This document shows, piece after piece, positions 4,484-36,507 of a DNA stretch of 37,891 nucleotides. The DNA is taken from the sequence record SRR22947727_319; one strand, written 5' to 3'. The translations under genes and the position numbers were made by a program. The notes below the pieces were generated by a model that was given only the letters and a program-made list of their open reading frames with translations, was not told where the DNA came from and ran no database searches. Position 1 is the stretch's first letter. Every line of letters starts with the position of its first letter.

Positions 4484-5800
4484 TCAGATATCCAGCGTAT
4501 TCTCTTTTTCCCAGGTTGAAAAATGCGCGGCGAATGCATCCCATTCCTGATGCTTTAACTTCAAATAAGCGGCTGAAAACTCATCTCCCAACATCGACTT
4601 TAAGCCTTTATTCTTGTTAAATTCACGCAATGCGTCCAACAGGTTCAAAGGCAGGCGCGGGGCACCGCGCACCTTATGCCCTTCGGCATACATATCAATG
4701 TCATAGCGTTTGCCTGGATCGGCATTGGTGCTCACCCCATCCAGACCGGCGGCAATAATTACGGCTTGCAACAAATAGGGGTTGGCGGCTCCATCCGGTA
4801 GACGCAGCTCAAACCGGCCAGGCCCGGGCACGCGCACCATATGGGTGCGGTTATTGCTGGTCCATGTTACGGTATTGGGTGCCCAAGTGGCCCCCGACAT
4901 CGTCCGCGGCGCATTGATGCGCTTGTAGCTGTTGACCGTGGGGTTGGTAATTGCGGCCAATGCGCCGGCATGTTTCATAATGCCACCCAAAAAGTGCCGC
5001 CCGGATTGCGACAGGCCCAGATCCATCGCATCATCGGCAAAAACATTTGTTTTTGCCGCATTGCCGGCACCATCCCAAACCGAAATATGGGCATGGCAGC
5101 CATTGCCGGTGAGCCCTTCAATGGGTTTTGGCATGAAGGTGGCGCGCAGACCGTGCTTTTCTGCCACGGATTTGGCCATGAATTTGAAAAAGCTGTGCTT
5201 ATCGGCGGTTTTTAACGCGTCATCGAATTCCCAATTCATTTCGAATTGGCCATTGGCGTCTTCATGATCGTTTTGATAGGGGCCCCAGCCCAACTCCAAC
5301 ATATAATCGCAAATTTCGCGGATCACCTCATAGCGGCGCATCACAGCTTGTTGATCATAGCAGGGTTTTGCGGCGGTATCGAACGGATCGCTGATTTGAT
5401 CGCCCTGTGGCGTGAGTAAAAAGAATTCAGCCTCAATGCCGGTTTTCACATGCAACCCCTGATCTGCAGCCCGATCAATAAGCTTGCGCAGCACGTTGCG
5501 CGGGGCCTGCGCGACATCTTCGCCCTCCATCACGCAATTCGCGGCCACCCAAGCCACCTCTGGCTTCCACGGCAATTGAATAACCGAAGACGCATCAGGC
5601 ACCGCCAGCATATCAGGATGGGCGGGGGTCATATCAAGATAGGTTGCAAATCCGGCAAATCCGGCGCCATCCTCTTGCATTTCGGCGATGGCCTGCGCGG
5701 GTACCAGCTTGGCGCGCTGACCGCCAAAAAGATCGGTAAATGACACCATAAAATATTTGACACCTGTTGCTTTTGCAAATGCGGCGAGATCAATGGTCAT
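4484..5800 (-). CDS. gmaS: Gamma-glutamylmethylamide synthetase (GlnT / type III glutamine-synthetase-like)
   Basis: FTDLFGGQRAKLVP, GAGFAGFAT, QNDHEDANGQFEMN, GATWAPN and FELRLPDG; last gene of the mgsA-mgsB-mgsC operon. Confidence 0.92.
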   Translation of the reverse strand: MTIDLAAFAKATGVKYFMVSFTDLFGGQRAKLVPAQAIAEMQEDGAGFAGFATYLDMTPAHPDMLAVPDASSVIQLPWKPEVAWVAANCVMEGEDVAQAPRNVLRKLIDRAADQGLHVKTGIEAEFFLLTPQGDQISDPFDTAAKPCYDQQAVMRRYEVIREICDYMLELGWGPYQNDHEDANGQFEMNWEFDDALKTADKHSFFKFMAKSVAEKHGLRATFMPKPIEGLTGNGCHAHISVWDGAGNAAKTNVFADDAMDLGLSQSGRHFLGGIMKHAGALAAITNPTVNSYKRINAPRTMSGATWAPNTVTWTSNNRTHMVRVPGPGRFELRLPDGAANPYLLQAVIIAAGLDGVSTNADPGKRYDIDMYAEGHKVRGAPRLPLNLLDALREFNKNKGLKSMLGDEFSAAYLKLKHQEWDAFAAHFSTWEKENTLDI

Positions 5801-5847
5801 CTTTTTTATCCTTTCGACTGTGATAGGGGGCTTGGCGGTTTAAGAGT

Positions 5848-7194
5848 TTAAAATGGAGCCTCCGCGCCGGGTATCCAGCTGGTGCCGGCAAGCGGTACGC
5901 CAGCCATGGCGGCAGCTTCAATCGTGAGGGCGCAGAGATCTTCGGGTTCCAAATTGCGCAAATTGTTTTTTCCGCAGGCGCGGGCGATGGTTTGTGCCTC
6001 GAGCGTCAAAACCTTAAGATAGTTCTTTAACCGTCGGCCAGCTTCGATCGGGTCCAGCCGGGCCATCAGTTCGGGATCTTGGGTTGTGATGCCAGCAGGG
6101 TCATTGCCCTCATGCCAATCATCATAGGCGCCCGCTGTGGTGCCCAATGCCTGATACTCGGCCTCCCATTTGGGATCATTATCGCCCAGCGCAATCAAAG
6201 CGGCGGTTCCGATGGAAACAGCATCTGCCCCCAGCGCCATGGCTTTGGCGACATCCGCGCCATTGCGAATTCCGCCCGAGACGACCAATTGAACTTTTCG
6301 GTGCATCCCCAGATCTTGCAGCGCTTTTACCGCCGGGCGAATGCAGGCCAAAGTGGGCAGGCCGACATGTTCGATGAACACATCCTGCGTGGCCGCTGTG
6401 CCGCCTTGCATCCCGTCAATCACCACAACATCTGCCCCTGCTTTCACGGCAAGCGTTGTATCAAAATATGGGCGGGTTGCGCCTATCTTTACATAAATCG
6501 GTATTTTCCATTGGGTGATTTCGCGCAGTTCGGTCAGCTTGATTTCAAGATCATCGGGGCCGGTCCAATCGGGGTGCCGGCAGGCCGAGCGCTGATCAAT
6601 ACCCTTTGGCAGATTGCGCATATCGGCCACGCGGTCCGATATTTTTTGGCCCAAAAGCATTCCGCCACCGCCGGGTTTCGCCCCTTGCCCGACCACCATT
6701 TCAATTGCATCGGCTTTGCGCAGATCATCGGGGTTCATTCCATAGCGCGAAGGCAAATATTGATAGACCAGCTTATCAGAATGCCCGCGCTCTTCTGCTG
6801 TCATGCCGCCATCGCCGGTGGTGGTTGAAGTTCCCGCTGCTGTGGCGCCGCGCCCCAGCGCTTCTTTTGCAGGCCCAGATAGAGCGCCAAAGCTCATCCC
6901 CGCGATAGTGATCGGAATATCCAGTTTAATCGGATTTTGCGCGTAGCGCGTGCCCAATGTAACCGAGGTATCGCAGGTTTCACGGTAGCCCTCTAAAGGG
7001 TAGCGAGAGACCGAAGCACCCAAGAATAAAAGATCGTCAAAATGGGGAACCGCACGTTTTGCGCCGCCGCCGCGTATGTCATAAATACCGGTCGCCGCAG
7101 CGCGGCGGATTTCGGCATTTACCGCCGGCGTAAATGTGGCGGATTGTATCGGTTCGGTGCGCGGCGCTGCCGCGGTTTCAGGGGGTTTGTTCAT
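5848..7194 (-). CDS. mgsC: N-methylglutamate synthase subunit C (GlxD; FMN-binding glutamate synthase domain)
   Basis: AGMSFGALS, TTGDGGM, GQGAKPGGGGML, RHPDWTGPDDL and SGGIRNGADVAKA; lacks the Fe-S cysteines. Confidence 0.9.
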   Translation of the reverse strand: MNKPPETAAAPRTEPIQSATFTPAVNAEIRRAAATGIYDIRGGGAKRAVPHFDDLLFLGASVSRYPLEGYRETCDTSVTLGTRYAQNPIKLDIPITIAGMSFGALSGPAKEALGRGATAAGTSTTTGDGGMTAEERGHSDKLVYQYLPSRYGMNPDDLRKADAIEMVVGQGAKPGGGGMLLGQKISDRVADMRNLPKGIDQRSACRHPDWTGPDDLEIKLTELREITQWKIPIYVKIGATRPYFDTTLAVKAGADVVVIDGMQGGTAATQDVFIEHVGLPTLACIRPAVKALQDLGMHRKVQLVVSGGIRNGADVAKAMALGADAVSIGTAALIALGDNDPKWEAEYQALGTTAGAYDDWHEGNDPAGITTQDPELMARLDPIEAGRRLKNYLKVLTLEAQTIARACGKNNLRNLEPEDLCALTIEAAAMAGVPLAGTSWIPGAEAPF

Positions 7195-7202
7195 TCTTCA
7201 CC

Positions 7203-7886
7203 TTAATAATCGCCGGCATGATCGACGTCAAAATTATAGAGTTTGCGCGCCGATCCATAGCGCTTGAACTCGCTGGGTTTGGCCGTGCTTTCGGCGCGCT
7301 CAAGCAAAGCCTGCACTTCCGCCAAATCTTCGGGCCGCATCTCTTTTTCCATGCAATCCGCACCTAAGGATTTAACTGCCCCGCGCACGAACAGCTTTGC
7401 CTCATATAGGCTATCGCCAAGCGCTTCGCCCGCGTCACCGCAGACAACCATTGTGCCGGATTGCCCCATAAAGGCCGACATATGTCCGATATTGCCATGC
7501 ACCACGATATCAATCCCCTTCATAGAGATCCCGCAGCGAGAGGAGGCATTGCCTTTGATCACCAAAAGCCCCCCATGGCCCGTTGCCCCTGCATACTGGC
7601 TGGCATCGCCCTCAATAATCACCGTGCCGGACATCATATTTTCCGCAACGCCCGGGCCTACAGAGCCATTAATGCGCAGACGCGCCTGTTTGTTCATTCC
7701 CGCGCAATAATAGCCGGTTGAGCCCTCAACCGTGACGTCAATTGGTGCGTCTAATCCAACCGCAATCGCGTGGGCGCCTTTGGGGTTTAAGATCTGCCAC
7801 GCTGTGAGCTTGGTGGCGGTATTTTGATTTTGCAACTGCGCATTGGCCTGTCGCAGGTCTGTTTGGTCTAGATCGATTATCTGCAT
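7203..7886 (-). CDS. mgsB: N-methylglutamate synthase subunit B (GlxC; GXGXG beta-helix)
   Basis: NPKGAHAIAVG, GYYCAGMN, GVAENMMSG, CGISMKG and GDSLYE repeats; lies between mgsA and mgsC. Confidence 0.9.
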   Translation of the reverse strand: MQIIDLDQTDLRQANAQLQNQNTATKLTAWQILNPKGAHAIAVGLDAPIDVTVEGSTGYYCAGMNKQARLRINGSVGPGVAENMMSGTVIIEGDASQYAGATGHGGLLVIKGNASSRCGISMKGIDIVVHGNIGHMSAFMGQSGTMVVCGDAGEALGDSLYEAKLFVRGAVKSLGADCMEKEMRPEDLAEVQALLERAESTAKPSEFKRYGSARKLYNFDVDHAGDY

Positions 7887-8783
7887 TTAATGGGTCCAAA
7901 AATAGACAGTTGCGGGTTCCGGTTCCCAAATATGGGCGTCGGCTATTCCGGGTAAATTCACCAAAGCCCGATATTCCGAGCCGAAGGCAACATATTGATC
8001 GGTTTCCGCCATCACCGCCGGTTTGCAGGCAATCGGATCGCGCAGCACGCCAAACCCATCCTTGGTGCCAACGACAAAGGTGAAAAACCCGTCCAGATCA
8101 TCAAGGCTGCTTTGCAGCGCTTCGCCCAACGAGCTGCCGTTTTGCATTTTCCAAGTTAAATAGGCCGCGCCTACTTCGGTGTCATTTTCGGTATCGATCA
8201 CCACGCCTTCGCGCTGCAATTGACGGCGCAGCGAATTGTGGTTGGACAAGGATCCATTATGCACCAAGCATTGATCCGGGCCGGTGTTAAAGGGGTGGGC
8301 GCCCATCGTGGTCACCGCGCTTTCGGTGGCCATTCTTGTATGGCCAATGCCGTGGGTGCCTTTCATCAGCGGGATATCAAACCGCTCTGCAACGCTTTTC
8401 GGGAGGCCAATATCTTTGTAAATCTCGATGTTATCGCCCGTGCTCATAACTCTGATGCCGGGATGAGCCCGGCGAATTCGGGCGCGGAGCTCACCGACCT
8501 GGTTTTGCGCAATTTCAAAAACCGCATGGCTGTTTTTGCGCTGCAAAGCTAGCGGCTGCTGGAAGGTTGATTTGAAATCTGCCTCTAGGGCGGCAAAATC
8601 TTGATCCGGGTGTACAGATTGGATGGTGATTTTGGCGCGATCCTCCACAGCCTCGCTATAGATGGCGATCCCTGCGCTGTCGGGCCCGCGATCCGACATA
8701 GTGACGAGCATATCCGTGAGCATGCGCCCCAACGCAGCTTCCAGCGAGGGGTCTTTTAAGAAAAGCCCAACAATTCCGCACAT
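7887..8783 (-). CDS. mgsA: N-methylglutamate synthase subunit A (GlxB; class II Ntn glutamine amidotransferase)
   Basis: N-terminal MCGIVG, RGPDSAG, GIGHTRMATES, HNG and DTE motifs. Confidence 0.9.
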   Translation of the reverse strand: MCGIVGLFLKDPSLEAALGRMLTDMLVTMSDRGPDSAGIAIYSEAVEDRAKITIQSVHPDQDFAALEADFKSTFQQPLALQRKNSHAVFEIAQNQVGELRARIRRAHPGIRVMSTGDNIEIYKDIGLPKSVAERFDIPLMKGTHGIGHTRMATESAVTTMGAHPFNTGPDQCLVHNGSLSNHNSLRRQLQREGVVIDTENDTEVGAAYLTWKMQNGSSLGEALQSSLDDLDGFFTFVVGTKDGFGVLRDPIACKPAVMAETDQYVAFGSEYRALVNLPGIADAHIWEPEPATVYFWTH

Positions 8784-8936: not shown

Positions 8937-8937
8937 C

Positions 8938-8966: not shown

Positions 8967-8985
8967 AATTCTTTTATGTCGGCCT

Positions 8986-9195: not shown

Positions 9196-10596
9196 TCAAT
9201 TGGATGCGGGCGCAGAGGCAGGAATGCCCTCTGGATAGCCCTGAGCAGGCACTTTAACAGGATCAAGCCCGGCCAGTTCTGCCGCTTCCGGAGTGCGCAG
9301 CATATCCAACCCTTTGAGGATCAAGGACACCACATAACCCGGGACAAAGCCCAGCAAGAAGAACACAACCGCACCCACGATTTGCCCCGTCAGCGAAATG
9401 GTAGGCCGTACGGCATCGCCCATAAAGGCATCTAAAGCGGGATATCCACTGGCAAAGACCCCCAGCATAATCAAACCAAAGAGGCCGATCGTGCCATGCA
9501 CGGTGACAGCGCCAACTGCATCATCTATCCCCATCCGCTCAAGAATATTCGCGCAAGGCTGCAGAATAACACCTGCGGCAAAGGCGATGATAAAGGCCAG
9601 ACCCGGGAAATAGATATCCAAGCCCGAGGCCACCGAAATAATACCGGCCAGCGCGCCAGACATCATCCAGAACGGATCTTTGGTGTAAATCCAAGCACCA
9701 ATAATCCCGCCGGCAATGCCCATTAGGATGTTGAAGGCCAAAGCTGAAAGCGTGATCGGCGTGCCATAAATCGTTGCCGGTGCGTTTTCATACCACGACC
9801 AACCTTCGCCGGGCACAATCACGCAGGCCATCAAAAAGCCCCAGAAGCCAACGATAATCAGCATCAAGCCCGTCACCGTCATCGGCATGTTATGTCCAGC
9901 GATGTGATTGGCGCTGCCATCGGCATTGAATTTGCCAATTCTGGGTCCAAGATTCACCAAAACGCCAAGCGCGAAGAAGCCTGCCACCGCGTGTACAAGG
10001 CCCGCCGCGCCAAAATCATGTAGCCCCCATTGCGTGACCAGCCAGCCATCCGCGTGCCAGCCCCAGGCCGCCGCAACCACCCAAGCAAAAGAACCGAGAA
10101 TGATCGCCAGAATGGTGAAACCCACCGTTTGAATACGCTCGATCACCGCGCCGGACATGATAGAGGCCGTGGTGCAGGCAAACAGCGCGAAGGCGCCAAA
10201 GAAAACGCCCGAGGCTTGATCGGCAATATTTGGCCCCATAGCGGCCGCGCCATCCCCCCAACCCAAAGCGATTGAGCTTGCATATTTGGCGCCGGAAATT
10301 TCCATGGCGCCCATAGATAGGCTGAGACCGGTTGGAAACGCCCAATAAATCCACCAACCAAAGAAGTAGAAAGTGGGGATCATAAAGGCAAAAGCCAGAA
10401 TGTTTTTAACGCCTGAAGAGAGCACATTTTTCATTCTAGAGGCGCCCATTTCATAGGCGAGAAATCCCGCGTGAATGATGATCATTAGCGGAATCGTTAA
10501 ATAATAATAGGCTTCCGCAAACATCGTGTTTGTCACGCTGCTGCTGGCTTGAAGAGCGGCAACTTGCGCAGCCAATTCTGCAATTTGTTCTTCCAC
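9196..10596 (-). CDS. amt: Amt/Mep/Rh-family ammonium or methylammonium transporter
   Basis: GFLAYEMG, SGAVIER, HDFGAAGLVH and IDDAVGAVTVHG (both pore His), C-terminal ELAGLD. Start reassigned to GTG at 10596, which has the RBS GAAGGGA. Confidence 0.9.
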   Translation of the reverse strand: MEEQIAELAAQVAALQASSSVTNTMFAEAYYYLTIPLMIIIHAGFLAYEMGASRMKNVLSSGVKNILAFAFMIPTFYFFGWWIYWAFPTGLSLSMGAMEISGAKYASSIALGWGDGAAAMGPNIADQASGVFFGAFALFACTTASIMSGAVIERIQTVGFTILAIILGSFAWVVAAAWGWHADGWLVTQWGLHDFGAAGLVHAVAGFFALGVLVNLGPRIGKFNADGSANHIAGHNMPMTVTGLMLIIVGFWGFLMACVIVPGEGWSWYENAPATIYGTPITLSALAFNILMGIAGGIIGAWIYTKDPFWMMSGALAGIISVASGLDIYFPGLAFIIAFAAGVILQPCANILERMGIDDAVGAVTVHGTIGLFGLIMLGVFASGYPALDAFMGDAVRPTISLTGQIVGAVVFFLLGFVPGYVVSLILKGLDMLRTPEAAELAGLDPVKVPAQGYPEGIPASAPASN

Positions 10597-11036
10597 GATC
10601 TGTTCCCTTCGTTTTTTAATTTTGCTCCCGTGCCGCTCCGCGGGCATTCTGATGTGCCATTGCGGTTTGGCCGCTTAAGCAGGGCCTAAGCGTGGCTGAT
10701 GATTGCAAATTTTCAGGTTATTTTAACGAATAGTTTTTGGGGCCTAAGCCCTTATTAATTAGAGGCTGAAGAGTGAATGAGAAAATTAATAGCAATCATT
10801 TTCAGTGCTTTAGAAGGTTTCTATGGAAGGGGGGCGGGCTATTGAAAGATTTGTTTTTATTATTTTTTGAGATTTAAAACCGCAGGTGGCGCTCTGTCCG
10901 CTTTGACGATCTTGAAATTGCAGTTGGTTTTGCGTTTCCTGGGCTGTGAGGAAAATATCGCGGCGCGAATGAATAAGAATGAGATGGCAGAACCTGTGAT
11001 CGGCGAGGGCTCTCTGCCTGGAAAAGTGAGGAATGC

Positions 11037-16269: not shown

Positions 16270-16376
16270 GAAAAATCTCCTGCGCGCGCTCTGCTGCTAA
16301 GCTCGAGCGCGGGTAAGAAAGGAAAGCGGTATTGCGGGTATATAATCATTTCAAGTTCAACGCTTCGGTGCTGGGG

Positions 16377-28347: not shown

Positions 28348-28355
28348 AAAAAGCT

Positions 28356-29635: not shown

Positions 29636-29720
29636 TTGTTTTGACCAATCATAGTTTAATTTAGTAAAAACGAGAATGGCGTTAGCGTAACCTTGTCTGA
29701 GATATATTGCCACTAATTTT

Positions 29721-29747
29721 TTGACCCTAAGCCCATAAAATCTATGT
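29721..29747 (+). promoter_or_regulatory. Candidate sigma70 promoter of tmoX
   Basis: TTGAC-N16-CTATGT resembles the alphaproteobacterial TTGAC-N16/17-CTATAT pattern; about 85 bp upstream of tmoX. Confidence 0.35.
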
Positions 29748-29832
29748 GCGGAAAACGTGACCAAATTTGCGAAGCTATGGGCATGCCCGAATTCGGGTAG
29801 AGCCAACCAAAAAAATATATCAGGGGGAAAAA

Positions 29833-30777
29833 ATGAATAAATTTACTCGGAAGGTTGCAGCTGGAGCCATGTCGTTAGCGGTCGGTTTTTCAGCTGGCCA
29901 AGTATATGCGGCGGATTCAAGTAAGCCCATCGTTATACCCACTCACAATTGGTCTAGTCAGGTTGTGATGGCCTATGTAATCGGCGGTATTTTTGAAAGT
30001 ATGGGGAATAACGTCGATTATGTTCCCGCCGATACGCAAGCAGTTTATGAAGCCATTCGTAATGGTGATGTGACGATTTCGCACGAGGTCTGGCAATCCA
30101 CATTTGGAGCTTCTTTTTACAATGCAATGGCAAAAGGAGGTATAATCGACGCCGGGACTCACGCGGCCATGACGTTAGAGGAAATGGGAGTTCCACAATA
30201 TGTAATCGATGATAATCTTTGCCCAGGTCTTCCAAATTGGGAGGCTTTGAAAGATTGTCATGAGGTTTTTGCAACTCCGGACTCTGGCGGAAAAGGCCGC
30301 TGGCTTGAGGGTCCGCAGAGTTGGCATGGTAACCAAATGCCAGAACGTCTTGCAGGGCTTGGTTTGGACGACAAATATATGGTCAAATTTGCCGGATCTG
30401 CTGACGCAATCTGGGCAGAGCTGGCGTCAGCAAAAAAAGAGGGAAGAGGCGTAATTACTTTTAATTGGACGCCTAATTTCACCGATGCTGATGGTTTTGT
30501 TTTTATTGAATTCCCGCCATATTTTGATGGATGTCGCGTAGGGGATGGAGGTGACGGTGCTTGTGGTTCTCCAAAAGGTTGGCTGAAGAAAGCGGCGAAT
30601 TATAAGTTTCCTAAGACACATCCGGCTGCATATACGGCATTTACAAAAATCTCCTTCACATCAAACCAAATTGGTCAAATGGCCGCATTAGTTGATATTG
30701 ATAAGATGAGCCACCAAGATGCGGCTAAAGCATGGCTTGCCGCTAATGAAGAAGTTTGGAAGCCATTTACGCAATAG
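29833..30777 (+). CDS. tmoX: TMAO ABC transporter substrate-binding protein (OpuAC/ProX family)
   Basis: Signal peptide, then PIVIPTHNWSSQ, HEVW, CPGLPNW and FNWTPNF, typical of TmoX; RBS AGGGGG; co-oriented with tdm. Start reassigned to ATG 29833. Confidence 0.85.
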   Translation: MNKFTRKVAAGAMSLAVGFSAGQVYAADSSKPIVIPTHNWSSQVVMAYVIGGIFESMGNNVDYVPADTQAVYEAIRNGDVTISHEVWQSTFGASFYNAMAKGGIIDAGTHAAMTLEEMGVPQYVIDDNLCPGLPNWEALKDCHEVFATPDSGGKGRWLEGPQSWHGNQMPERLAGLGLDDKYMVKFAGSADAIWAELASAKKEGRGVITFNWTPNFTDADGFVFIEFPPYFDGCRVGDGGDGACGSPKGWLKKAANYKFPKTHPAAYTAFTKISFTSNQIGQMAALVDIDKMSHQDAAKAWLAANEEVWKPFTQ

Positions 30778-30816
30778 TTTAGTTTGGCTTCGCGTTTCAA
30801 CTAGCTTTAAAACAAA

Positions 30817-30863
30817 GAAGGTTGTGCGCTTTCAGCGGGTTTGTCTGCAAGCGCACAATTTTC
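30817..30863 (+). terminator. Stem-loop after tmoX (partial terminator or mRNA stabiliser)
   Basis: 10-bp arms TTGTGCGCTT (30822-30831) / AAGCGCACAA (30849-30858), extendable by G-U pairs, followed by TTTT. Confidence 0.65.
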
Positions 30864-30972
30864 GAGTTGAAAAGAGCAAGTGTGGGTCAGTGCTGTCGCA
30901 CAGTATATCTTGAATTTATGTGGTTGAATGCGGAAATTGGATCCTCTGCCGGCGACCTAACAGGAAATAAAA

Positions 30973-32043
30973 ATGAATCATCCCAACGTCCAGGCTACTG
31001 ACAACCGTCCAATAATTAAATGTGAGTCAGTTTATAAAATATTCGGTGAAAATTCTAAGAGGATGCTTCAACAAGTAAATGGACAGGTCGATACAAAGAA
31101 GTTTCAAGCTGCCGGCTTAGTTGTAGGAGTTAACAATGCCAGCTTCGAAGTTTCAAAAGGAGAAATGCTTGTAATAATGGGGCTATCGGGCTCTGGAAAA
31201 TCAACGTTATTGCGCTGTATTTCACGACTTTCAGAGCCAACTTCGGGCCAAATATTTATAGATGGCGAAGACCTAGTGGGAATGAGCCCGCGACAGCTGA
31301 TCGAATTACGCCGAAATAAAATGGGGATGGTTTTTCAAAACTTTGCTCTGTTGCCACATAAAACCGTGCTTGAGAATATCGCGTTTCCATTGCAAGTGAA
31401 GGGTCAGACCACGGCTGATAGTATAAAACGTGCTTTGGAAATGGTTGAGCTTGTTGGCCTGGCAGGTCGAGAAAATTACTTTCCAAGAGAGCTTTCTGGC
31501 GGTCAACAACAAAGGGTGGGTATCGCTCGCTCGCTCGCGGTTGAACCAGATATTTGGTTTCTTGATGAACCATTTTCAGCGCTTGACCCCCTTATCAGAA
31601 AAGAAATGCAAGATGAGTTCATGCGTTTGCAGGGCGTGCTGAAAAAAACAATTCTCTTTGTTACGCATGATTTTAACGAGGCGTTACGTCTCGCGGATCG
31701 GATCGCAATTATGAAAGATGGGATAATTGAACAGCTTGATACCCCTGCTAATATCGTTCTGAACCCAGCCACCAGCTACGTGCAAAAATTTACTGAAGAA
31801 GTACCGCGAGAAAAAGTACTGAAGATAGAGGCGGTAATGGACCCACCGTCTGAACATGCCACTGATGCAACGTTCCAAATCTCAAAAGACGCGATTATTG
31901 AAACAGTGGCTGAAGCCGTACTTTCTGCAAAGAACCCAGTGGATGTCGTGGATGCGCAGGGAACCATTGTTGGCTCGGTGCAAGCATCAAAGGTAATCCG
32001 TGTGCTATTCGGCAAAACTGTTACCAATCGGGTTATGGAGTAA
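30973..32043 (+). CDS. tmoW: TMAO ABC transporter ATP-binding subunit (ProV/OpuAA family)
   Basis: Walker A GLSGSGKS, signature LSGGQQQR, Walker B/D-loop FLDEPFSALD and H-loop VTHD. Confidence 0.88.
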   Translation: MNHPNVQATDNRPIIKCESVYKIFGENSKRMLQQVNGQVDTKKFQAAGLVVGVNNASFEVSKGEMLVIMGLSGSGKSTLLRCISRLSEPTSGQIFIDGEDLVGMSPRQLIELRRNKMGMVFQNFALLPHKTVLENIAFPLQVKGQTTADSIKRALEMVELVGLAGRENYFPRELSGGQQQRVGIARSLAVEPDIWFLDEPFSALDPLIRKEMQDEFMRLQGVLKKTILFVTHDFNEALRLADRIAIMKDGIIEQLDTPANIVLNPATSYVQKFTEEVPREKVLKIEAVMDPPSEHATDATFQISKDAIIETVAEAVLSAKNPVDVVDAQGTIVGSVQASKVIRVLFGKTVTNRVME

Positions 32044-32052
32044 GCTGAGAAG

Positions 32053-34113
32053 ATGGTAATGATAATCCGCAATTCCAAGCTTGCTCAGTTTGTAATCCTC
32101 TTGATAATATTTTTCAGTCTTTATTTTGGAATAGAGGCCGCTGATGACAATATATTGTGGCGCTTTCCTGCCCTGCTTGCTGGGCTTCCAGGTGCAATAA
32201 ATGTGTTTGTCGAGCATTTGATGTATGATTGGATGCCGATACAGATTTATGATCCTGAACTCGACGATTACGAGGACTCAGCTTTAATTAAAGAAATCAC
32301 AAGAAGCTTTTCTCGTGCAGTTCTCTTTTTTATAGAACTAATCCGTGAGCTACTTCTCGGGGGTGTAAAAACTATCGTAGCGTTCACGAGCTGGGATTTT
32401 GTGGGAGAGAATGACTGGGCGGTTTGGCCCGCTTTACCCTGGACATTCGTTGCAGGAGGCGCTGCATTTTTAGGCTACACATTGAAAGGCAAAGGTTTAG
32501 CTTTTTTGGCGGGTAGCTCTGCCGCCTACATAGCTATTTTTGGTCAATGGGAGCCCGCGATGGAGACTTTATCCTTTGTCTTAGTCGCAGCGCCAGTTTC
32601 ATGTTTTTTAGGTTTGGTATTTGGGGTCCTCTGCTTCAAAAGCCGGTCAATAGAAATTGTCATGATGCCGTTATTAAACATTGCTCAGACAATGCCTCAT
32701 TTTTCCTATTTGGTGCCCGTCATGGTCTTTTTTGGCGTGGGAGATCATGCTGGGGCCATCGCGACTATTATCTTTGCCACGCCTCCTATGATACGTCTCA
32801 CCTTGCTTGGGCTTAAAAGCGTACCGCCGGAGGTTTTTGAAGCAGGTATGATGAGCGGCTGCAATGATTATCAGATCTTGATGCAAGTTCTCATTCCCAC
32901 TGCGAGAAGAGATATTTTGATCGGTATCAACCAGGTTATAATGCAATGTCTGGCGATGGCTGTTATTGCGTCATTTATCGGTGCGAAAGGCTTGGGTTTC
33001 AATCTTCTTCTTGCGCTGAACCAATTACGTGTTGGTCAAGCATTAGAGCTTGGGATTTGCATTGTATTGATAGCGGTGGTTTTGGACAAATTATCGCTGG
33101 CATGGGCCAATAAGCCAGTGGATTATTTTGCGGATCGGGTGATCTTAATCCGCCATAAAAATATTCTGACATTGCTCGGAATATTTTTGATCAGCGTTCT
33201 GTTTTGTGTTTTTGGTCGTTATGCATTCAGTGAAGAGCTAAACTACCTCTACCTGATCCCCCATAATCAGGGAATTACTACAGAAAATTTCTGGCAAGCC
33301 GGTGTCGATTGGATGGTTGAGCATTGGTATCAAGGTCTTCAGGGATTTAATACAGCACTTATAAAAGGCGTTTTGATGCCTATGAAGGCGGCTTATCTCG
33401 GCATGCCGGTGATTGCGACCTTCGTGCTAATAATGGGTGTGGGATATATTATTGGGGGACTAAAATCAGCTTTAGTGGTGTGTGGGTTTTTGATGTTTAT
33501 CGCACTGAATGAGTGGTGGGATCGAGCCTTAATCACTGCTTATATGGCATCATTTGCGGTAATCGTATCTGTGAGCTTAGGGGTGTTAGCAGGCTCGTTG
33601 GCTGCACAACATCAAAAAGCGAGTAAGATGATCTTACTGGTTTGCGATACGTTTCAAACATTTCCATCGTTTATTTACCTGATACCTGTAATAATGCTTT
33701 TTGGTGTTACTGACACATCCGTTCTAATCGCGGTTATCGTTTACGCGACAATACCAGCAACTCGCTATACGGTTGAGGGGCTCAAAAGCGTACCTCAATC
33801 GTTGCATGATGCAGGCTCAATGTCAGGCGTGAATAAAATGCAAAGATGGTTAAAAATAGAATTGCCAATGGCATTTCCTCATATAATGCTTGGGGTCAAC
33901 CAGACTGTCATTTTTGCTTTATTTATGATAATTATCGGAGCGATGATTGGAACGGATGATTTAGGACAATACATCCTAAAAGCTCTTTCTGATAAAAATG
34001 GAACCGGAAATGGCCTCATGCTAGGCCTGTGCGTCGCGTTTATCGGTTTATCCGTTGATCACTTAATTCTGACATGGGCAAACAAGCGCAAAGCGTTGCT
34101 TGGTTTAGTATAG
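32053..34113 (+). CDS. tmoV: TMAO ABC transporter permease with two fused ProW-like domains
   Basis: Two repeats, QTMPHFSYLVP...FEAG...GINQ and QTFPSFIYLIP...HDAG...GVNQ; highly hydrophobic. Confidence 0.88.
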   Translation: MVMIIRNSKLAQFVILLIIFFSLYFGIEAADDNILWRFPALLAGLPGAINVFVEHLMYDWMPIQIYDPELDDYEDSALIKEITRSFSRAVLFFIELIRELLLGGVKTIVAFTSWDFVGENDWAVWPALPWTFVAGGAAFLGYTLKGKGLAFLAGSSAAYIAIFGQWEPAMETLSFVLVAAPVSCFLGLVFGVLCFKSRSIEIVMMPLLNIAQTMPHFSYLVPVMVFFGVGDHAGAIATIIFATPPMIRLTLLGLKSVPPEVFEAGMMSGCNDYQILMQVLIPTARRDILIGINQVIMQCLAMAVIASFIGAKGLGFNLLLALNQLRVGQALELGICIVLIAVVLDKLSLAWANKPVDYFADRVILIRHKNILTLLGIFLISVLFCVFGRYAFSEELNYLYLIPHNQGITTENFWQAGVDWMVEHWYQGLQGFNTALIKGVLMPMKAAYLGMPVIATFVLIMGVGYIIGGLKSALVVCGFLMFIALNEWWDRALITAYMASFAVIVSVSLGVLAGSLAAQHQKASKMILLVCDTFQTFPSFIYLIPVIMLFGVTDTSVLIAVIVYATIPATRYTVEGLKSVPQSLHDAGSMSGVNKMQRWLKIELPMAFPHIMLGVNQTVIFALFMIIIGAMIGTDDLGQYILKALSDKNGTGNGLMLGLCVAFIGLSVDHLILTWANKRKALLGLV

Positions 34114-34122
34114 GGGGCTGGA

Positions 34123-36507
34123 ATGAATACACCCGTTTTATTTTCAACACCCCAAACAAAAGCAGGGGTTCGCAAGCCCGGTATGATGGTTTTGCCACAA
34201 GGGGTTGAAAGGCATCCCGTGCCCGGAGGGGGCAGCCGTGCCGTACCAATTTTTGCGGGTGATCAGATTACGCTGCAAGATGTGGAAGGTTTGCAACCCA
34301 TTGAAATGGTATTTTTTGGGCCCGACAAACGATCAGATGCCGCGATGTTGGGGGCCAAAGGCGGGCGCAGCCCAGAGGGGTTGATTGCCGCGCTTACCGG
34401 GCACCCATCTGGTAAAAAAGTAATCGCTGCGCTTGAGAAAACAGGGTTTTCAATCGCCGATGCCGATGCCAGTCTCGTGTTTGAAGGCGGCTCGCGTGCG
34501 GGAGAGACGGCAAGTTTTCAGGCCGTATCGGATGGATTATTGATCATATGCGCCGCGGGTGGCGCGATGGATGCGCATCAGCAATGGGCCCCAAGCGATG
34601 TGGTGTTGTTTATCACGCGGATTAATAAGCGGCCCTTGAAAGACATGTCATTGGTGCATGACCCACTGGCCGACCCTTTGGTGAGTTTGCATATTCAACC
34701 AGGCGAGGCAAAACCTTATGAGGTGAAGGCGGGGGAATATATTCAAGTTTTAGACGTGCAGGGCAGAGAATGCAGCGATTTTCAGGCCTTTTCGCGCCGC
34801 GCTTTGGACGCTGGATTGGAGCGCGATATCGATCCCACAACCACGCGGTCTTTGATGGGGGCGCTTTACCCCAAGCCAGGGCTCTTGGCAAAATACTTTA
34901 GCGTTGATCAGGAACCTTTGGTCGAGATTATCCAAGACACGGTGGGCCGCCATGATACATTTGGATTGGCCTGTACCGCGCGGTATTACGAAGATCTTGG
35001 CTATCCGGGCCATGTCAACTGTTCGGATAATATCAACCTTGAAATGCAGGCCTATGATGTGCGTCCGCGGGGCGGCTGGCCAGCGATAAACTTCTTTTTC
35101 AATACGATTTTAGACGAGACCAATGCGATTTCGATGGATGAGCCTTATTCGCGGCCCGGAGATTATGTTTTGATGCGGGCGCTCACGGATTTAGTTTGTG
35201 TTTCAACGGGTTGTCCTTGTGATGTTGATCCAGCAAATGGCTGGCAGCCAAGCGATATTCAAGTCTGGACCTATCGCGAAAGTGAAGATTTCAAGCGCTC
35301 GATTGGCTGGCGCAAAACTCCGGGGGCTGATGTGGAAGAAACGAAAAAAACTGGGTTTCACGATTGTTTTGCCCGCCATACGCGCAATTTTGTGGAATAT
35401 GCCGGATATTGGCTGGCGCAGGACATGATGCATCATGGCAGCATAGCTGAATATTGGGCCGCGCGCGAAAAAGCGGTTATTATGGATCTATCGCCGCTTC
35501 GAAAATATGAAGTGACGGGCCCTGATGCCGAAGCGCTGATGCAGCTATCTATCACGCGGGATGTGAAAAAAATTCCGGTCGGCGGCATCGTCTATACCGC
35601 GATGTGCTATGAACATGGTGGTATGATTGACGATGGCACGTTGTTTCGCTTGGGGGATACCAATTTTCGGTGGATCGGCGGCAATGACCAATCCGGGCTT
35701 TGGCTGCGCAAACAAGCCGAGGAGCGTGGCCTAAACGCATGGGTGCGTTCTTCCACGGACCATCATTGCAATGTGGCGGTGCAAGGGCCGTTGTCGCGCG
35801 AAATTCTGAAAGATGTGATTTGGACGCCCCCCGCGCAGCCCACTGTTGAAGAGCTGCAATGGTTTCGCTTTTCGATTGGCCGGATTGGCGGCTTTCATGG
35901 CCCCTCCGTGGTGCTCAGTCGGACCGGATATTCTGGAGAGCTGGGCTATGAGGTTTTTTGCCATCCGAAAGACGCAGAACAGGTTTTTGACGCGATTTGG
36001 GCCGCAGGTGCGCCGCATGGGCTTACGCCTTTTGGGCTTGCTGCGCTTGATATGGTGCGGATTGAGGCTGGGTTGATCTTTGCTGGCTCTGAATTTGATG
36101 ATCAAACCGATCCAATGGAGGCAGGCATTGGTTTTACGGTGCCTTTGAAAAGTAAAACTGATGAATTTATCGGCCGCGCAGCGCTCGAGCGGCGCAAAGC
36201 CCATCCGCAAAAGAAACTTGTCGGGCTTGAATTGGAGGGCGGTGTTGTGCCAACGCCGGGCGATTGTATCCATATCGGGAAGCCACAAGTGGGCGTTGTG
36301 ACCTCGGCGATGCGCTCGCCTGTTTTGGGCAAAGTGATTGCTTTGGCACGGGTAGATTTGGCCCATGCCGAGATTGGCACTGAGTTGGAAGTTGGGCGGC
36401 TGGATGGGGACCAACTGCGCTTACCAGCTAAAATTGTTGCATTCCCGCATTTCGATCCGAAGAAAGAGCGGGTGAAGGGCAATTATGAGGGCGTGCGAGG
36501 CGGGTGA
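34123..36507 (+). CDS. tdm: Trimethylamine N-oxide demethylase (DUF1989 plus GcvT aminomethyltransferase domains)
   Basis: DUF1989 motifs GRECSDF, GRHDTFGLAC, HVNCSDN and CPCDVD, followed by a GcvT fold (DLSPLRK, RTGYSGELGYE, RIEAG). Confidence 0.9.
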   Translation: MNTPVLFSTPQTKAGVRKPGMMVLPQGVERHPVPGGGSRAVPIFAGDQITLQDVEGLQPIEMVFFGPDKRSDAAMLGAKGGRSPEGLIAALTGHPSGKKVIAALEKTGFSIADADASLVFEGGSRAGETASFQAVSDGLLIICAAGGAMDAHQQWAPSDVVLFITRINKRPLKDMSLVHDPLADPLVSLHIQPGEAKPYEVKAGEYIQVLDVQGRECSDFQAFSRRALDAGLERDIDPTTTRSLMGALYPKPGLLAKYFSVDQEPLVEIIQDTVGRHDTFGLACTARYYEDLGYPGHVNCSDNINLEMQAYDVRPRGGWPAINFFFNTILDETNAISMDEPYSRPGDYVLMRALTDLVCVSTGCPCDVDPANGWQPSDIQVWTYRESEDFKRSIGWRKTPGADVEETKKTGFHDCFARHTRNFVEYAGYWLAQDMMHHGSIAEYWAAREKAVIMDLSPLRKYEVTGPDAEALMQLSITRDVKKIPVGGIVYTAMCYEHGGMIDDGTLFRLGDTNFRWIGGNDQSGLWLRKQAEERGLNAWVRSSTDHHCNVAVQGPLSREILKDVIWTPPAQPTVEELQWFRFSIGRIGGFHGPSVVLSRTGYSGELGYEVFCHPKDAEQVFDAIWAAGAPHGLTPFGLAALDMVRIEAGLIFAGSEFDDQTDPMEAGIGFTVPLKSKTDEFIGRAALERRKAHPQKKLVGLELEGGVVPTPGDCIHIGKPQVGVVTSAMRSPVLGKVIALARVDLAHAEIGTELEVGRLDGDQLRLPAKIVAFPHFDPKKERVKGNYEGVRGG

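What the first reader, a model, noticed from the sequence alone, without database searches (positions are those of the whole stretch)
4484..36507. The methylamine super-cluster has every step except the DMA -> MMA enzyme
Seen: tmoXWV (uptake), tmm (TMA->TMAO), tdm (TMAO->DMA) and gmaS/mgsABC/mgdABCD (MMA) are all present. No ORF in the window resembles the heme/ferredoxin-reductase DMA monooxygenase subunits (DmmABC) or a TMA/DMA dehydrogenase. Established: in model roseobacters dmm genes lie in this cluster, and many pelagic marine bacteria with tmm/tdm lack them, which has been regarded as a DMA bottleneck. Inference: the unexplained operon sits in a cluster missing exactly this function. 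Without a DMA step, TMAO nitrogen could not reach the MMA pathway.
Basis: partly seen in the sequence, partly recalled or inferred. Interest (0 to 1): 0.75.

Follow-up and report, generated by a model that had tools for sequence, protein, structure and literature searches.

The report
Candidate missing dimethylamine route
This marine bacterium's gene island for breaking down trimethylamine lacks the known dimethylamine enzyme, and in its place carries an unstudied sister copy of the methylamine-to-glutamate genes that is also found in SAR11 and may be the long-sought other way to use dimethylamine.

Summary
The window encodes gmaS-mgsABC, an Amt-family carrier, tmm, mgdABCD, tmoXVW and tdm, and no Dmm subunit or TMA/DMA dehydrogenase. 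No genome is held for the window. The nearest complete genome (G001, 99% identical) has no DmmA-family match and only a lone, distantly related DUF3445 gene 346 kb away.

The "unexplained operon" (20335-28649) is a paralogous module: a flavoprotein (DAO2), a GmaS-like ligase (GS2), an N-methylglutamate-synthase-like trio (GAT2, GXG2, GLT2), a 137-aa unknown and accessory genes.

- **One family, one genome per genus:** of 34 Tdm-bearing genomes, 17 have DmmA, 16 have GS2, none has both and 1 has neither.
- **Alphaproteobacteria sample:** of 26 Tdm-bearing genomes, 21 have GS2, 3 have DmmA, none has both and 2 have neither.
- **Pelagibacter:** the module follows tdm directly, in 40 of 40 full-length loci.

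I read the module as the alternative to DmmDABC for dimethylamine use (confidence 0.55). The chemistry is inferred. The exclusivity partly reflects two island types that move horizontally. GS2 also occurs in 14 genomes without Tdm.

My literature searches found the gap stated but no function assigned to these genes. This scan flagged the same module before on other DNA.

The parts
4484..5800 (-). gmaS, canonical gamma-glutamylmethylamide synthetase
   Evidence: TIGR03105 661 bits, over the cut-off. 612 bits to RhGmaS, PDB 7cql.
5848..8783 (-). mgsC (5848-7194), mgsB (7203-7886), mgsA (7887-8783): canonical N-methylglutamate synthase
   Evidence: Glu_synthase, GXGXG and GATase_6 domains. MgsA begins MCGI. 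MgsC lacks the three GltS-type Cys.
9196..10647 (-). Amt-family transporter, 483 aa
   Evidence: PF00909 179 bits. TIGR03644 'marine subtype' 159 bits, below its cut-off.
11037..12380 (+). tmm, trimethylamine monooxygenase
   Evidence: NF058570 801 bits, over the cut-off of 675.
12469..17627 (-). mgdD (12469-13068), mgdC (13037-15985), mgdB (15982-16269), mgdA (16377-17627): N-methylglutamate dehydrogenase
   Evidence: soxG 62.6 bits (below its cut-off), soxA 1335 bits and soxB 674 bits. SoxD 96.8 bits.
17710..18684 (+). AraC/DJ-1 regulator beside mgd, in the position of TmaR
   Evidence: HTH_18 and DJ-1_PfpI domains. GbdR-like 257 bits, below its cut-off. TmaR (SPO1584) lies upstream of mgd in R. 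pomeroyi (PMC13390433, passages).
18738..19457 (+). class-I glutamine amidotransferase / peptidase C26-like protein, 239 aa
   Evidence: PF00117 and PF07722. A homologue lies in 36 of the 80 roseobacter-type GS2 loci and in 0 of the 80 SAR11-type loci.
19468..20148 (-). GntR/FCD regulator, divergent from the second module
   Evidence: FCD and GntR domains. It travels with GS2 in 68 of 80 loci, including loci without tmm or tdm nearby.
20335..21678 (+). DAO2: single-subunit FAD oxidoreductase, counterpart of SAR11_1304 by gene order
   Evidence: The DAO domain matches only residues 8-226. soxB 74 bits against a cut-off of 529. 58% identical to the Pelagibacter gene that follows tdm.
21744..23222 (+). 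GS2: divergent GmaS-like glutamate-amine ligase, 492 aa
   Evidence: TIGR03105 296 bits, below the cut-off of 469.6, in two stretches. About 29% identical to gmaS. Trp replaces the GS flap Glu, Asp stands at the RhGmaS Asp177 position, and the Asp50' position is not acidic.
23281..24234 (+). GAT2: Ntn-type amidotransferase subunit; the true start is probably the MCGI Met six codons in
   Evidence: GATase_6 and GATase_7. The MCGI motif is conserved with MgsA and the Pelagibacter copy.
24222..25091 (+). GXG2: GXGXG-domain subunit
   Evidence: PF01493 53 bits.
25114..26478 (+). GLT2: FMN glutamate-synthase-like subunit that keeps three GltS-type Cys
   Evidence: PF01645 306 bits. 53% identical to MgsC. 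Its Cys residues align with the GltS motif C...C-H-x3-C-PVG. 88-98% identical across 60 roseobacter-type loci.
26491..26904 (+). u137: conserved 137-aa protein of no known family
   Evidence: No Pfam or NCBIfam hit. Found in 59 of 80 and 70 of 80 loci. 63 invariant columns in 28 sequences. Model pLDDT 64 with no fold match.
26909..28649 (+). accessory genes of the roseobacter version: CN-hydrolase (26909-27766), u194 (27763-28347), DUF1330 (28317-28649)
   Evidence: PF00795 180 bits and PF07045 101 bits. The CN-hydrolase scores below the cut-off for deaminated-glutathione amidase. All three are absent from the 80 SAR11-type loci.
28694..29806 (-). LysR regulator upstream of tmoX
   Evidence: LysR_substrate and HTH_1.
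29767..34113 (+). tmoX (29767-30777), tmoV (30973-32043), tmoW (32053-34113): TMAO ABC importer
   Evidence: OpuAC, ABC_tran and BPD_transp_1 domains.
34123..36507 (+). tdm, TMAO demethylase (produces DMA)
   Evidence: NF053776 1191 bits, over the cut-off of 1100.

Best explanation
The island is a complete trimethylamine/TMAO-to-ammonia pathway in which DmmDABC is replaced by the paralogous module at 20335-26904: DAO2, GS2, GAT2, GXG2, GLT2 and u137, plus accessory genes.

**Shown**
- The genome line lacks Dmm.
- The module is a sister of GmaS-MgsABC.
- GS2 carries the catalytic signature of an alkylamine ligase rather than of a glutamine synthetase.
- GS2 and Dmm were never found together in the Tdm-bearing genomes sampled.

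**Inferred mechanism**
1. Tdm makes DMA.
2. GS2 ligates DMA to the gamma-carboxyl of glutamate, with ATP, giving N5,N5-dimethylglutamine.
3. GAT2 (Cys1 amidotransferase) releases the amine inside the GAT2-GXG2-GLT2 complex. There the FMN and probable Fe-S subunit GLT2 fixes it on 2-oxoglutarate as N,N-dimethylglutamate.
4. DAO2, where present, removes one methyl to give N-methylglutamate. In genomes without DAO2 this step has no candidate other than MgdABCD.
5. MgdABCD removes the last methyl, giving glutamate.

My confidence in the general claim (the module is the DMA route that stands in for Dmm) is 0.55. My confidence in the stated intermediates is about 0.3.
For: **1. Dmm is absent.**
- G001 has no DmmA match at E<=1.
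- Its only PF11927 hit is the lone short type. That type also occurs beside true DmmC in Dmm-bearing genomes.

**2. Complementarity within one family (121 genomes, one per genus).**
- 34 carry Tdm: 33 over the cut-off plus G057, which is cut by a contig end.
- 17 of the 34 have DmmA. 16 have GS2 at 73% identity or more. None has both, and 1 has neither (G097).
- None of the other 87 genomes has either.

**3. Complementarity across the class (401 Alphaproteobacteria).**
- Of 26 genomes with Tdm over the cut-off, 21 have GS2, 3 have DmmA, none has both and 2 have neither. The two with neither are 75% and 94% complete.

**4. Further genomes reached through GS2 loci.**
- They are two Roseovarius, one Ruegeria, Pseudaestuariivita, Marinibacterium, and MAGs labelled Aestuariivirgaceae, Rhizobiaceae (two), SAR116 and Hyphomicrobiales.
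- 9 of 10 have Tdm and 0 of 10 have DmmA.
- In several of them GS2 and tdm lie 0.5 Mb or more apart or on different contigs.

**5. Independent switches.**
- On an RpoB tree of 28 of the 34 genomes the label needs 7 changes, at least 6 of them forced by well-supported branches.
- Inside the GS2-type Tdm clade two genomes, G010 and G072, carry dmmDABC and no GS2.

**6. Synteny.**
- In all 40 full-flank Pelagibacteraceae loci, tdm, DAO2, GLT2 and u137 lie together with GS2.
- In G520 the order is tmoXVW, tdm, a 116-aa ORF, DAO2, GS2, GAT2, GXG2, GLT2, u137, amt.

**7. Enzyme signature.**
- GS2 has Trp where GS has the flap Glu.
- It has Asp where RhGmaS has the amine-deprotonating Asp177 and GS has His.
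- It has no acidic residue at the Asp50' position.
- Its Asp50' loop and flap are remodelled relative to GmaS (residue roles from PMC7948447, passages).
- GAT2 keeps Cys1.
- GLT2 keeps the three Cys that align with GltS, and MgsC has lost them.

**8. Published experiments.**
- HTCC1062, which lacks dmmDABC, grows on TMAO as its only nitrogen source. The authors suggest an unknown isoenzyme (PMC8918994, section 12 read).
- SAR11_1304, next to tdm, is the second most induced enzyme under nitrogen limitation, and its function is called uncertain (PMC3870248, passages).
- RhGmaS turns over with DMA at Km 16 mM, so a GS-fold ligase can accept DMA (PMC7948447, Table 1).

**9. RNA-library contigs.**
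- Contigs from two studies cover the module at 95-100% identity.
Against: - There is no biochemical or genetic evidence for any step. The intermediates N5,N5-dimethylglutamine and N,N-dimethylglutamate are not reported as bacterial metabolites of DMA in the 15 papers that search 40 returned.
- The exclusivity is partly linkage. The Tdm tree splits into a clade of 15 genomes that all have Dmm, and a clade of 18 that holds 15 with GS2, 2 with Dmm and 1 with neither. The label needs only 3 changes on that tree. The many switches on the RpoB tree are therefore mostly exchanges of two island types.
- 14 of the 38 GS2-bearing genomes in the class sample have no Tdm, and several of them are 100% complete.
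- Parts of the module are dispensable.
  - DAO2 is missing from 5 of 16 GS2 genomes in the family sample and from 6 of 23 GS2 genomes with Tdm in the class sample. It is present in one Dmm genome, G475, and absent from 5 of 5 genomes reached through loci.
  - Four genomes have GS2 but only the canonical MgsC-type subunit.
- In HTCC1062 the SAR11_1305 and SAR11_1308 proteins were slightly less abundant under nitrogen limitation, at 0.67 and 0.66 fold (PMC3870248).
- G097, G381 and G470 carry Tdm with neither module, so Tdm without a known DMA route may truly occur.
- The window's own genome was not searchable. G001 is a stand-in.
Confidence: 0.55

Rival explanations
1. There is a true metabolic bottleneck. 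The organism has no DMA-to-MMA step and uses TMA/TMAO only for energy and C1 units, excreting DMA. The second module then serves another amine (ethylamine, another primary amine, or MMA at a different affinity).
For: - This is the published reading for Dmm-less marine bacteria (PMC5520151).
- 14 of 38 GS2 genomes have no Tdm.
- Three Tdm genomes have neither module.
- Roseovarius indicus, reported to have only MMA and TMA genes, did not grow on MMA or a methylamine mixture with glucose (PMC7574528, passages). I did not check whether it holds GS2.
Against: - It does not explain why GS2 and Dmm never co-occur in 59 Tdm-bearing genomes.
- It does not explain why GS2 is gone in the two genomes of the GS2-type Tdm clade that carry dmmDABC.
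- It does not explain why the streamlined Pelagibacter genomes keep six extra genes directly behind tdm in 40 of 40 loci.
- HTCC1062 grows on TMAO as its only nitrogen source without Dmm (PMC8918994).
Confidence: 0.2
2. DAO2 alone is the missing enzyme. It would be a flavin-dependent DMA oxidase or dehydrogenase making MMA and formaldehyde, as speculated for SAR11_1304. GS2 and the synthase-like trio would be a parallel MMA or ammonia system.
For: - DAO2 resembles the sarcosine-oxidase beta subunit and L-amino-acid deaminase in its FAD half.
- It lies directly after tdm in Pelagibacter.
- SAR11_1304 is strongly induced under nitrogen limitation and has been proposed as an amine demethylase (PMC3870248; PMC5520151).
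Against: - DAO2 is absent at E<=1e-60 from 11 of 39 GS2-bearing, Tdm-bearing, Dmm-less genomes.
- It is absent at E<=1e-30 from 5 of 5 genomes reached through loci.
- It is present in one Dmm genome without GS2, G475.
- It therefore tracks the gap less well than GS2.
Confidence: 0.15
3. A DMA enzyme of a known kind is encoded elsewhere in the genome. Candidates are the lone DUF3445/HODM-alpha-like protein working with an unlinked reductase, or one of the two unassigned two-domain old-yellow-enzyme-type flavoproteins acting as a DMA dehydrogenase.
For: - G001 holds one PF11927 gene (165 bits) next to glnA-glnB.
- G001 holds two FMN/FAD two-domain proteins of about 680 aa with 147-182 bits to trimethylamine dehydrogenase.
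Against: - PF11927 matches occur in 94 of 121 genomes of the family; most of these are the short lone type, which also occurs in genomes that have a true DmmC and in genomes without Tdm.
- It is 28% identical to DmmC and has no DmmA or reductase neighbour.
- The flavoproteins score higher against NCR and FadH than against TMADH, and they lie far from the island.
Confidence: 0.05

Closest known systems
N-methylglutamate pathway front end: GmaS + MgsABC (Methyloversatilis, Methylocella, Ruegeria pomeroyi; RhGmaS structure 7cql)
   Same: - Same gene order: a ligase followed by Ntn-amidotransferase, GXGXG and FMN subunits.
- GS2 shares the GmaS-specific residues: Asp at the Asp177 position, Glu at the Glu186 position and Trp in place of the GS flap Glu.
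- GAT2 keeps Cys1.
- GLT2 is 53% identical to MgsC.
   Different: - GS2 is about 29% identical to GmaS and scores 296 bits against a cut-off of 469.6 for TIGR03105.
- It has extra segments at the Asp50' loop and elsewhere, and a flap five residues shorter.
- GLT2 keeps the three GltS-type Cys that MgsC has lost.
- The module adds u137 and often a single-subunit flavoprotein.
- It coexists with the canonical set in the window, in G161, G520 and G486, and in five further GS2 genomes.
Dimethylamine monooxygenase DmmDABC / haem-dependent oxidative N-demethylase
   Same: - Same place in the pathway and the same genomic neighbourhood, between the mgs, mgd and tdm genes.
- Complementary distribution among Tdm-bearing genomes.
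   Different: - No homology. No DmmA domain, no haem PAS subunit of the operon type and no 2Fe-2S reductase.
- The proposed chemistry goes through glutamate conjugates, not direct hydroxylation of DMA.
Glutamate synthase large subunit (GltB; 1ea0, 7mfm) and glutamine synthetase
   Same: - GLT2 aligns with the FMN domain of GltS, including the Cys triad before PVGVATQDP.
- GS2 has the GS fold and ATP-grasp-like catalytic domain.
   Different: - The subunits are split, and no GltD-like partner is in the window.
- GS2 lacks the flap Glu and Asp50' that bind and deprotonate ammonium in GS (roles from PMC7948447).
- That the three Cys bind a 3Fe-4S cluster in GltS is recalled knowledge, not from a call.
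Gamma-glutamylation routes for other amines (Puu putrescine pathway, Ipu isopropylamine pathway)
   Same: - A GS-like ligase, a FAD oxidoreductase and a class-I amidotransferase/C26 hydrolase occur together (window 18738-23222).
- GS2 scores 210 bits against gamma-glutamylputrescine synthetase NF045547, far below the cut-off of 650.
   Different: - The Puu and Ipu routes have no glutamate-synthase-like trio.
- The hydrolase and the CN-hydrolase are missing from the SAR11 version.
- The comparison with Puu and Ipu is recalled, not tested.

Membership tests
DmmDABC dimethylamine monooxygenase | DmmA-family domain (NCBIfam NF041259, cut-off 60 bits) | tested here: not met
   No match in G001 at E<=1, while G027 matched at 115 bits in the same call. 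None of the window ORFs scanned with NCBIfam matched it.
DmmDABC dimethylamine monooxygenase | Haem subunit (PF11927) of the operon type: about 350 aa, at least 213 bits, next to dmmA, dmmB and dmmD | tested here: not met
   G001's only PF11927 hit scores 165 bits, is 267 aa long, stands alone, and is 28% identical to G027 DmmC.
DmmDABC dimethylamine monooxygenase | FNR-type 2Fe-2S reductase subunit and GcvT-like DmmD in the cluster | tested here: not met
   No such Pfam domains outside Tdm and MgdC in the window. No dmmB or dmmD best hit in 80 roseobacter-type loci.
Trimethylamine/dimethylamine dehydrogenase (Tmd/Dmd) | Close similarity to TMADH (PDB 2tmd/1djn) over both the FMN and the ADP-binding domains | tested here: not met
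   The three G001 candidates score 137-182 bits to TMADH. Each scores higher against FadH or NCR. None lies in the window.
GmaS (TIGR03105, gamma-glutamylmethylamide synthetase), tested for GS2 | Score over the curated cut-off of 469.6 bits | tested here: not met
   296 bits in two stretches. The window's gmaS scores 661 bits.
GmaS (TIGR03105, gamma-glutamylmethylamide synthetase), tested for GS2 | Catalytic residues of RhGmaS: Asp177, Glu186, Trp300 in place of the GS flap Glu, and no Asp50' | tested here: met
   GS2 has GDHEDAPGQLELNW and GFWAP, and a non-acidic residue at the Asp50' position. The same holds in two SAR11-type copies. Residue roles are from PMC7948447.
Glutamine synthetase proper, tested for GS2 | Flap glutamate and Asp50' for ammonium binding | tested here: not met
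   Trp stands at the flap position, and Gly or Val (depending on the alignment) at Asp50'.
N-methylglutamate synthase MgsABC, tested for GAT2-GXG2-GLT2 | Three split subunits: Ntn amidotransferase with Cys1, GXGXG domain, FMN glutamate-synthase domain | tested here: met
   Domains. MCGI start. 53% identity of GLT2 to MgsC.
N-methylglutamate synthase MgsABC, tested for GAT2-GXG2-GLT2 | Activity on gamma-glutamylmethylamide or methylamine giving N-methylglutamate | not testable with these tools
   This needs an enzyme assay. The Cys triad kept in GLT2 but lost in MgsC suggests a different redox arrangement.
N-methylglutamate dehydrogenase MgdABCD / heterotetrameric sarcosine oxidase, tested for DAO2 | SoxB-family score over 529 bits, with alpha, gamma and delta partners | tested here: not met
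   74 bits over the N-terminal half only. It is a single gene with no partner subunits.
TMA oxidation island (Tmm, Tdm, TmoXVW, GmaS, MgsABC, MgdABCD) | Tmm and Tdm over their curated NCBIfam cut-offs, with the NMG genes adjacent | tested here: met
   Tmm 801 bits against 675, and Tdm 1191 bits against 1100. Gene map.

The most novel reading that the evidence does not exclude
The GS2 module (SAR11_1304-1309 in Pelagibacter ubique, judged by gene order) is a previously unrecognised glutamate-conjugate pathway for dimethylamine. DMA is ligated to glutamate and carried over to N,N-dimethylglutamate by an Fe-S/FMN synthase. It is then demethylated to N-methylglutamate. If so, SAR11 and most other Tdm-bearing marine Alphaproteobacteria do not have a DMA bottleneck at all. 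Marine DMA budgets and the gene markers used for them would then need revising.
Probability: 0.3. Interest if true: 0.9.

Novelty: new variant of a known kind. Interest (0 to 1): 0.8.

Why it matters
DMA is a climate-relevant volatile amine. The absence of dmmDABC from SAR11 and many pelagic bacteria has been read as a bottleneck that lets DMA escape to the atmosphere (PMC5520151).

HTCC1062 nevertheless grows on TMAO as its only nitrogen source (PMC8918994). The enzyme responsible has been an open question since at least 2013 (PMC3870248).

The work here gives that question a concrete, testable candidate.
- It is a conserved gene module that replaces Dmm in every sampled Tdm-bearing genome but three.
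- It is abundant in public sequence data: its 90%-identity protein clusters hold 1,297 to 6,264 members.
- It is present in culturable roseobacters (Roseovarius, Ruegeria, Salipiger by record titles), where gene knock-outs can be attempted.

If the reading is right, surveys that score DMA degradation by dmm genes alone undercount it.

Tried and rejected
- **Whole genome of the window.** None is held. I used G001 as a stand-in.
- **RpoB trees.** My scripts picked antisense ORFs, and a wrong reference. Both trees are discarded and only one search is used.
- **u137.**
  - No Pfam hit even at E<=5.
  - The protein-atlas neighbours are unnamed clusters at scores of 0.85 or less.
  - The AlphaFold model has mean pLDDT 64, and Foldseek against PDB gave nothing at E<=0.001.
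  - Its role stays unknown.
- **u194.** Only a chance-level DUF1499 hit at E 0.18.
- **RNA evidence.**
  - The laid runs are contigs from RNA libraries, so they cannot show levels, starts or strand. DNA carry-over is not excluded.
  - The stretch 29.7-34.1 kb (tmoXVW) had little or no cover in these runs. I draw nothing from that.
- **Growth data for GS2-type roseobacters.**
  - The comparative paper on roseobacter methylated-amine use (Chen 2012) is not held.
  - The choline paper gave nothing on TMA growth of Roseovarius.
- **The lone DUF3445 gene and the OYE-type flavoproteins as hidden DMA enzymes.** Considered and rated unlikely.
- **Supplementary tables.** Those of PMC5520151, which list the genomes with and without dmm, were not opened. 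They could name tested strains that bear on the claim.
- **Complex prediction.** Not run. I make no claim that particular subunits bind.

Full report
**What is in the window**

ORF listing and Pfam/NCBIfam scans give this map.
- **Minus strand:** gmaS (4484-5800; TIGR03105 661 bits), mgsC/B/A (5848-8783), an Amt-family carrier (9196-10647), and mgdD/C/B/A (12469-17627).
- **Plus strand:**
  - tmm (11037-12380; NF058570 801 bits).
  - An AraC/DJ-1 regulator in the TmaR position (17710-18684).
  - A class-I amidotransferase/C26 protein (18738-19457).
  - tmoX/V/W (29767-34113).
  - tdm (34123-36507; NF053776 1191 bits).
- **Regulators on the minus strand:** GntR (19468-20148) and LysR (28694-29806).
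- **Between GntR and LysR, a nine-gene plus-strand operon (20335-28649):**
  - DAO2, a FAD oxidoreductase.
  - GS2, a 492-aa GS-fold protein.
  - GAT2, an Ntn amidotransferase.
  - GXG2, a GXGXG-domain protein.
  - GLT2, an FMN glutamate-synthase-like protein.
  - u137, a 137-aa protein of unknown family.
  - A CN-hydrolase.
  - u194, a 194-aa protein of unknown family.
  - A DUF1330 protein.

None of the 33 scanned ORFs has a haem N-demethylase domain, a 2Fe-2S/FNR reductase or an old-yellow-enzyme domain.

**Is Dmm elsewhere in the genome?**

No assembly is held for the window. The nearest held genome is G001.
- It is one contig of 3.62 Mb with completeness 100.
- It matches window 1-19998 at 99%.
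- It carries GS2, DAO2 and Tdm at 100, 99 and 99.6% identity.

G001 has no DmmA-family match at E<=1, while the control genome G027 matched. It has one PF11927 match, a lone 267-aa gene 346 kb from the island. That gene lies beside an M24/creatinase-like peptidase and glnA-glnB.

Across 121 genomes of the same family, PF11927 hits fall into two classes.
- **Operon type:** at least 213 bits, about 350 aa, found in 17 genomes.
- **Short lone type:** 130-198 bits, found in most genomes, including those that also have the operon type.

G001's gene is of the lone type and is 28% identical to G027 DmmC.

In G027 the operon type lies in tmoP-dmmD-dmmA-dmmB-dmmC-AraC-mgdDCBA. This matches the R. pomeroyi layout described in PMC5520151.

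G001's three two-domain FMN/FAD proteins are one FadH and two that score higher against NCR and FadH than against trimethylamine dehydrogenase. The genome line therefore lacks every known DMA enzyme, as far as a 99%-identical stand-in can show.

**What the unexplained operon is**

GS2 is about 29% identical to the window's gmaS and to the GlnA of G001. It misses the TIGR03105 cut-off, at 296 bits against 469.6.

I aligned GS2 to B. subtilis GS and to RhGmaS, taking residue roles from PMC7948447.
- GS2 has Trp where GS has the flap Glu, as GmaS does.
- It has Asp where GmaS has the amine-deprotonating Asp177; GS has His there.
- It has Glu at the Glu186 position.
- It has no acidic residue at the Asp50' position.
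- It has a 10-residue insertion at the Asp50' loop, a flap five residues shorter, and two further insertions.

It is therefore an alkylamine ligase of the GmaS kind with a rebuilt amine pocket, not a glutamine synthetase.

GAT2 keeps the catalytic MCGI start.

GLT2 is 53% identical to MgsC. It keeps the three Cys that align with the C...C-H-x3-C-PVG motif of glutamate synthase, where MgsC has Asp, Trp and Asp. That these Cys bind the 3Fe-4S cluster in GltS is recalled, not tested.

u137 has no family and no confident fold.

Public records give these proteins only generic names.

**Distribution**

*Family sample.* In 121 genomes of G001's family, one per genus, Tdm is over its cut-off in 33, plus one copy cut by a contig end. 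I dropped two genomes whose only hit is a sub-cut-off paralogue.
- DmmA is in 17 genomes.
- GS2 at 73% identity or more is in 16. Twelve further hits at 30-33% are canonical gmaS-type genes, and one at 51% is in G060.
- The 34 Tdm genomes split into 17 with Dmm, 16 with GS2, 0 with both and 1 with neither (G097).
- None of the other 87 genomes has either.

*Class sample.* In 401 Alphaproteobacteria, 26 genomes have Tdm over the cut-off.
- 21 have GS2, 3 have DmmA, 0 have both and 2 have neither. The two with neither are 75% and 94% complete, and each is in a genus with a GS2 member.
- Against the hypothesis, 14 of the 38 GS2 genomes have no Tdm.

*Genomes reached through named GS2 loci.* Nine of ten have Tdm and none has DmmA. 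One of the ten duplicates G098. In the Roseovarius, Aestuariivirgaceae and Rhizobiaceae cases the two loci are unlinked.

*Flanks of GS2 loci.* None of the 80 roseobacter-type GS2 loci has dmmA, dmmB or dmmC within 10 kb.

**Independence**
- On an RpoB tree of 28 of the 34 genomes, the Dmm/GS2 label needs 7 changes, at least 6 of them forced. The shuffled mean is 8.9. Six Dmm genomes gave no RpoB match and are missing from this tree.
- The Tdm tree shows why (33 genomes plus two SAR11-type rows, G057 left out). There are two deep Tdm clades. One has 15 genomes, all with Dmm. The other has 18: 15 with GS2, plus G010 and G072 with Dmm, and G097 with neither. The label needs only 3 changes.
- The islands therefore come in two types that move between genera, and much of the exclusivity is inherited with the island.
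- Two things go beyond linkage.
  - Inside the GS2-type clade, G010 (the nearest Tdm to the window, 78% identical) and G072 each carry dmmDABC and have no GS2.
  - The pattern holds where GS2 and tdm are unlinked.

**SAR11**

GS2 homologues at 64-84% identity occur in small low-GC genomes. G520's copy is 99% identical to named Pelagibacter records.
- The gene order there is tmoXVW, tdm, a 116-aa ORF, DAO2, GS2, GAT2, GXG2, GLT2, u137, amt. The canonical gmaS lies about 8.5 kb further on.
- All 40 full-flank Pelagibacteraceae loci hold tdm, DAO2, GLT2 and u137.
- This order fits the published HTCC1062 locus tags: SAR11_1303 AMT (Tdm), 1304 'monomeric sarcosine oxidase', 1305 glnT, 1308 gltB2, 1310 amt, 1313-1315 glxBCD and 1316 glnT (PMC3160333; PMC3870248).

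The literature states the gap but assigns nothing to SAR11_1305-1309.
- SAR11_1304 is the second most induced enzyme under nitrogen limitation, with its function called uncertain.
- The DMA pathway is 'in question' (PMC3870248).

**Which genes are core?**
- DAO2 is in 11 of 16 family-sample GS2 genomes, 17 of 23 class-sample GS2 genomes with Tdm, and 10 of 14 without Tdm. It is in none of the other 8 Dmm genomes searched, but it is in G475, a Dmm genome without GS2.
- It is absent from 5 of 5 further GS2 genomes.
- Four genomes with a solitary GS2 next to amt, tmm and tdm have only an MgsC-type subunit and a canonical gmaS.
- GS2 is thus the one constant element. The trio plus u137 is usual, and DAO2 is frequent. 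The CN-hydrolase, u194, DUF1330 and the C26 protein are additions confined to the roseobacter-type loci.

**Mechanism**

The best reading is that GS2 captures DMA on glutamate and the synthase-like complex carries it to the alpha-nitrogen. One methyl is then removed by DAO2 where it is present, and MgdABCD removes the last. This uses only reaction types known from the N-methylglutamate pathway. It fits the finding that a canonical GmaS turns over with DMA, although poorly (Km 16 mM; PMC7948447). Every step is inference.

The rivals are:
- a real bottleneck, with the module serving another amine;
- DAO2 alone as a DMA oxidase;
- a hidden enzyme of a known kind elsewhere in the genome.

**Expression**

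Contigs from RNA libraries of two studies cover the regulator genes, the whole second module and tdm at 95-100% identity. Single contigs bridge GLT2 to u194. Contigs cannot show levels, and DNA carry-over is not excluded.

**Novelty**

Eight literature searches found no paper that gives these genes a function or describes a glutamate-linked DMA route.

After I had formed this reading, the scan's own notes showed that earlier agents reached similar readings for the same module on other DNA. Those notes are not independent evidence. Their remark about a retained iron-sulfur site led me to the Cys check.

**Verdict**
- The function is unproven but directly testable.

Noticed in passing
G001:C1:2358728-2359531 (L010:8729-9532): A lone 267-aa HODM-alpha-like (PF11927) gene lies divergent from an M24/creatinase-like peptidase and next to glnA-glnB. 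PF11927 matches occur in 94 of 121 genomes of the family, most of them this short type, which also occurs in genomes that have true DmmC. Its function is unknown.
   Followed up: partly
G085, G099, G111, G098, G026; G124, G125; G389, G419, G511, G224: A Tdm-like paralogue class scores 1002-1069 bits, just under the NF053776 cut-off of 1100. It sometimes occurs beside a true Tdm and is sometimes the only copy. Genomes with only this class have neither Dmm nor GS2.
   Followed up: no
window 25114-26478, about residues 335-370 of GLT2: GLT2 keeps three Cys that align with the C...C-H-x3-C-PVG motif of glutamate synthase, with a 17-residue insert between the first and second. The canonical MgsC (5848-7194) has Asp, Trp and Asp there.
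   Followed up: yes
window 18738-19457 and 26909-28649: A class-I amidotransferase/C26 protein, a Nit-type CN-hydrolase, u194 and DUF1330 accompany the module in roseobacter-type loci. They are absent from all 80 SAR11-type loci. The C26 and Nit enzymes could hydrolyse gamma-glutamyl or 2-oxoglutaramate-type amides.
   Followed up: partly
window 23281-24234: The longest ORF of GAT2 starts six codons upstream of the conserved MCGI. The real start is probably the second Met, which would expose the catalytic Cys.
   Followed up: partly
window 28694-29806 (-) and 29767-30777 (+): The LysR and tmoX ORFs as listed overlap head to head by 40 bases and use TTG starts. The true starts are probably further in.
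   Followed up: no
G126:C23:258695-260002, G532:C2:30673-32001, G161:C1:1198926-1200245: These are further GS-like genes inside or beside the methylated-amine islands, distinct from both gmaS and GS2. Those in G126 and G532 score 522-543 bits to TIGR03105 (over its cut-off of 469.6); the one in G161 scores 358 bits (below it).
   Followed up: no
window 2-4402: The left flank encodes a thioesterase, an acyl-CoA dehydrogenase, an ADP-forming acyl-CoA synthetase and an enoyl-CoA hydratase. These are not part of the amine island.
   Followed up: no
G475: One genome that has Dmm and Tdm but lacks GS2 carries a DAO2 homologue at 69% identity. DAO2 can therefore occur without GS2.
   Followed up: no
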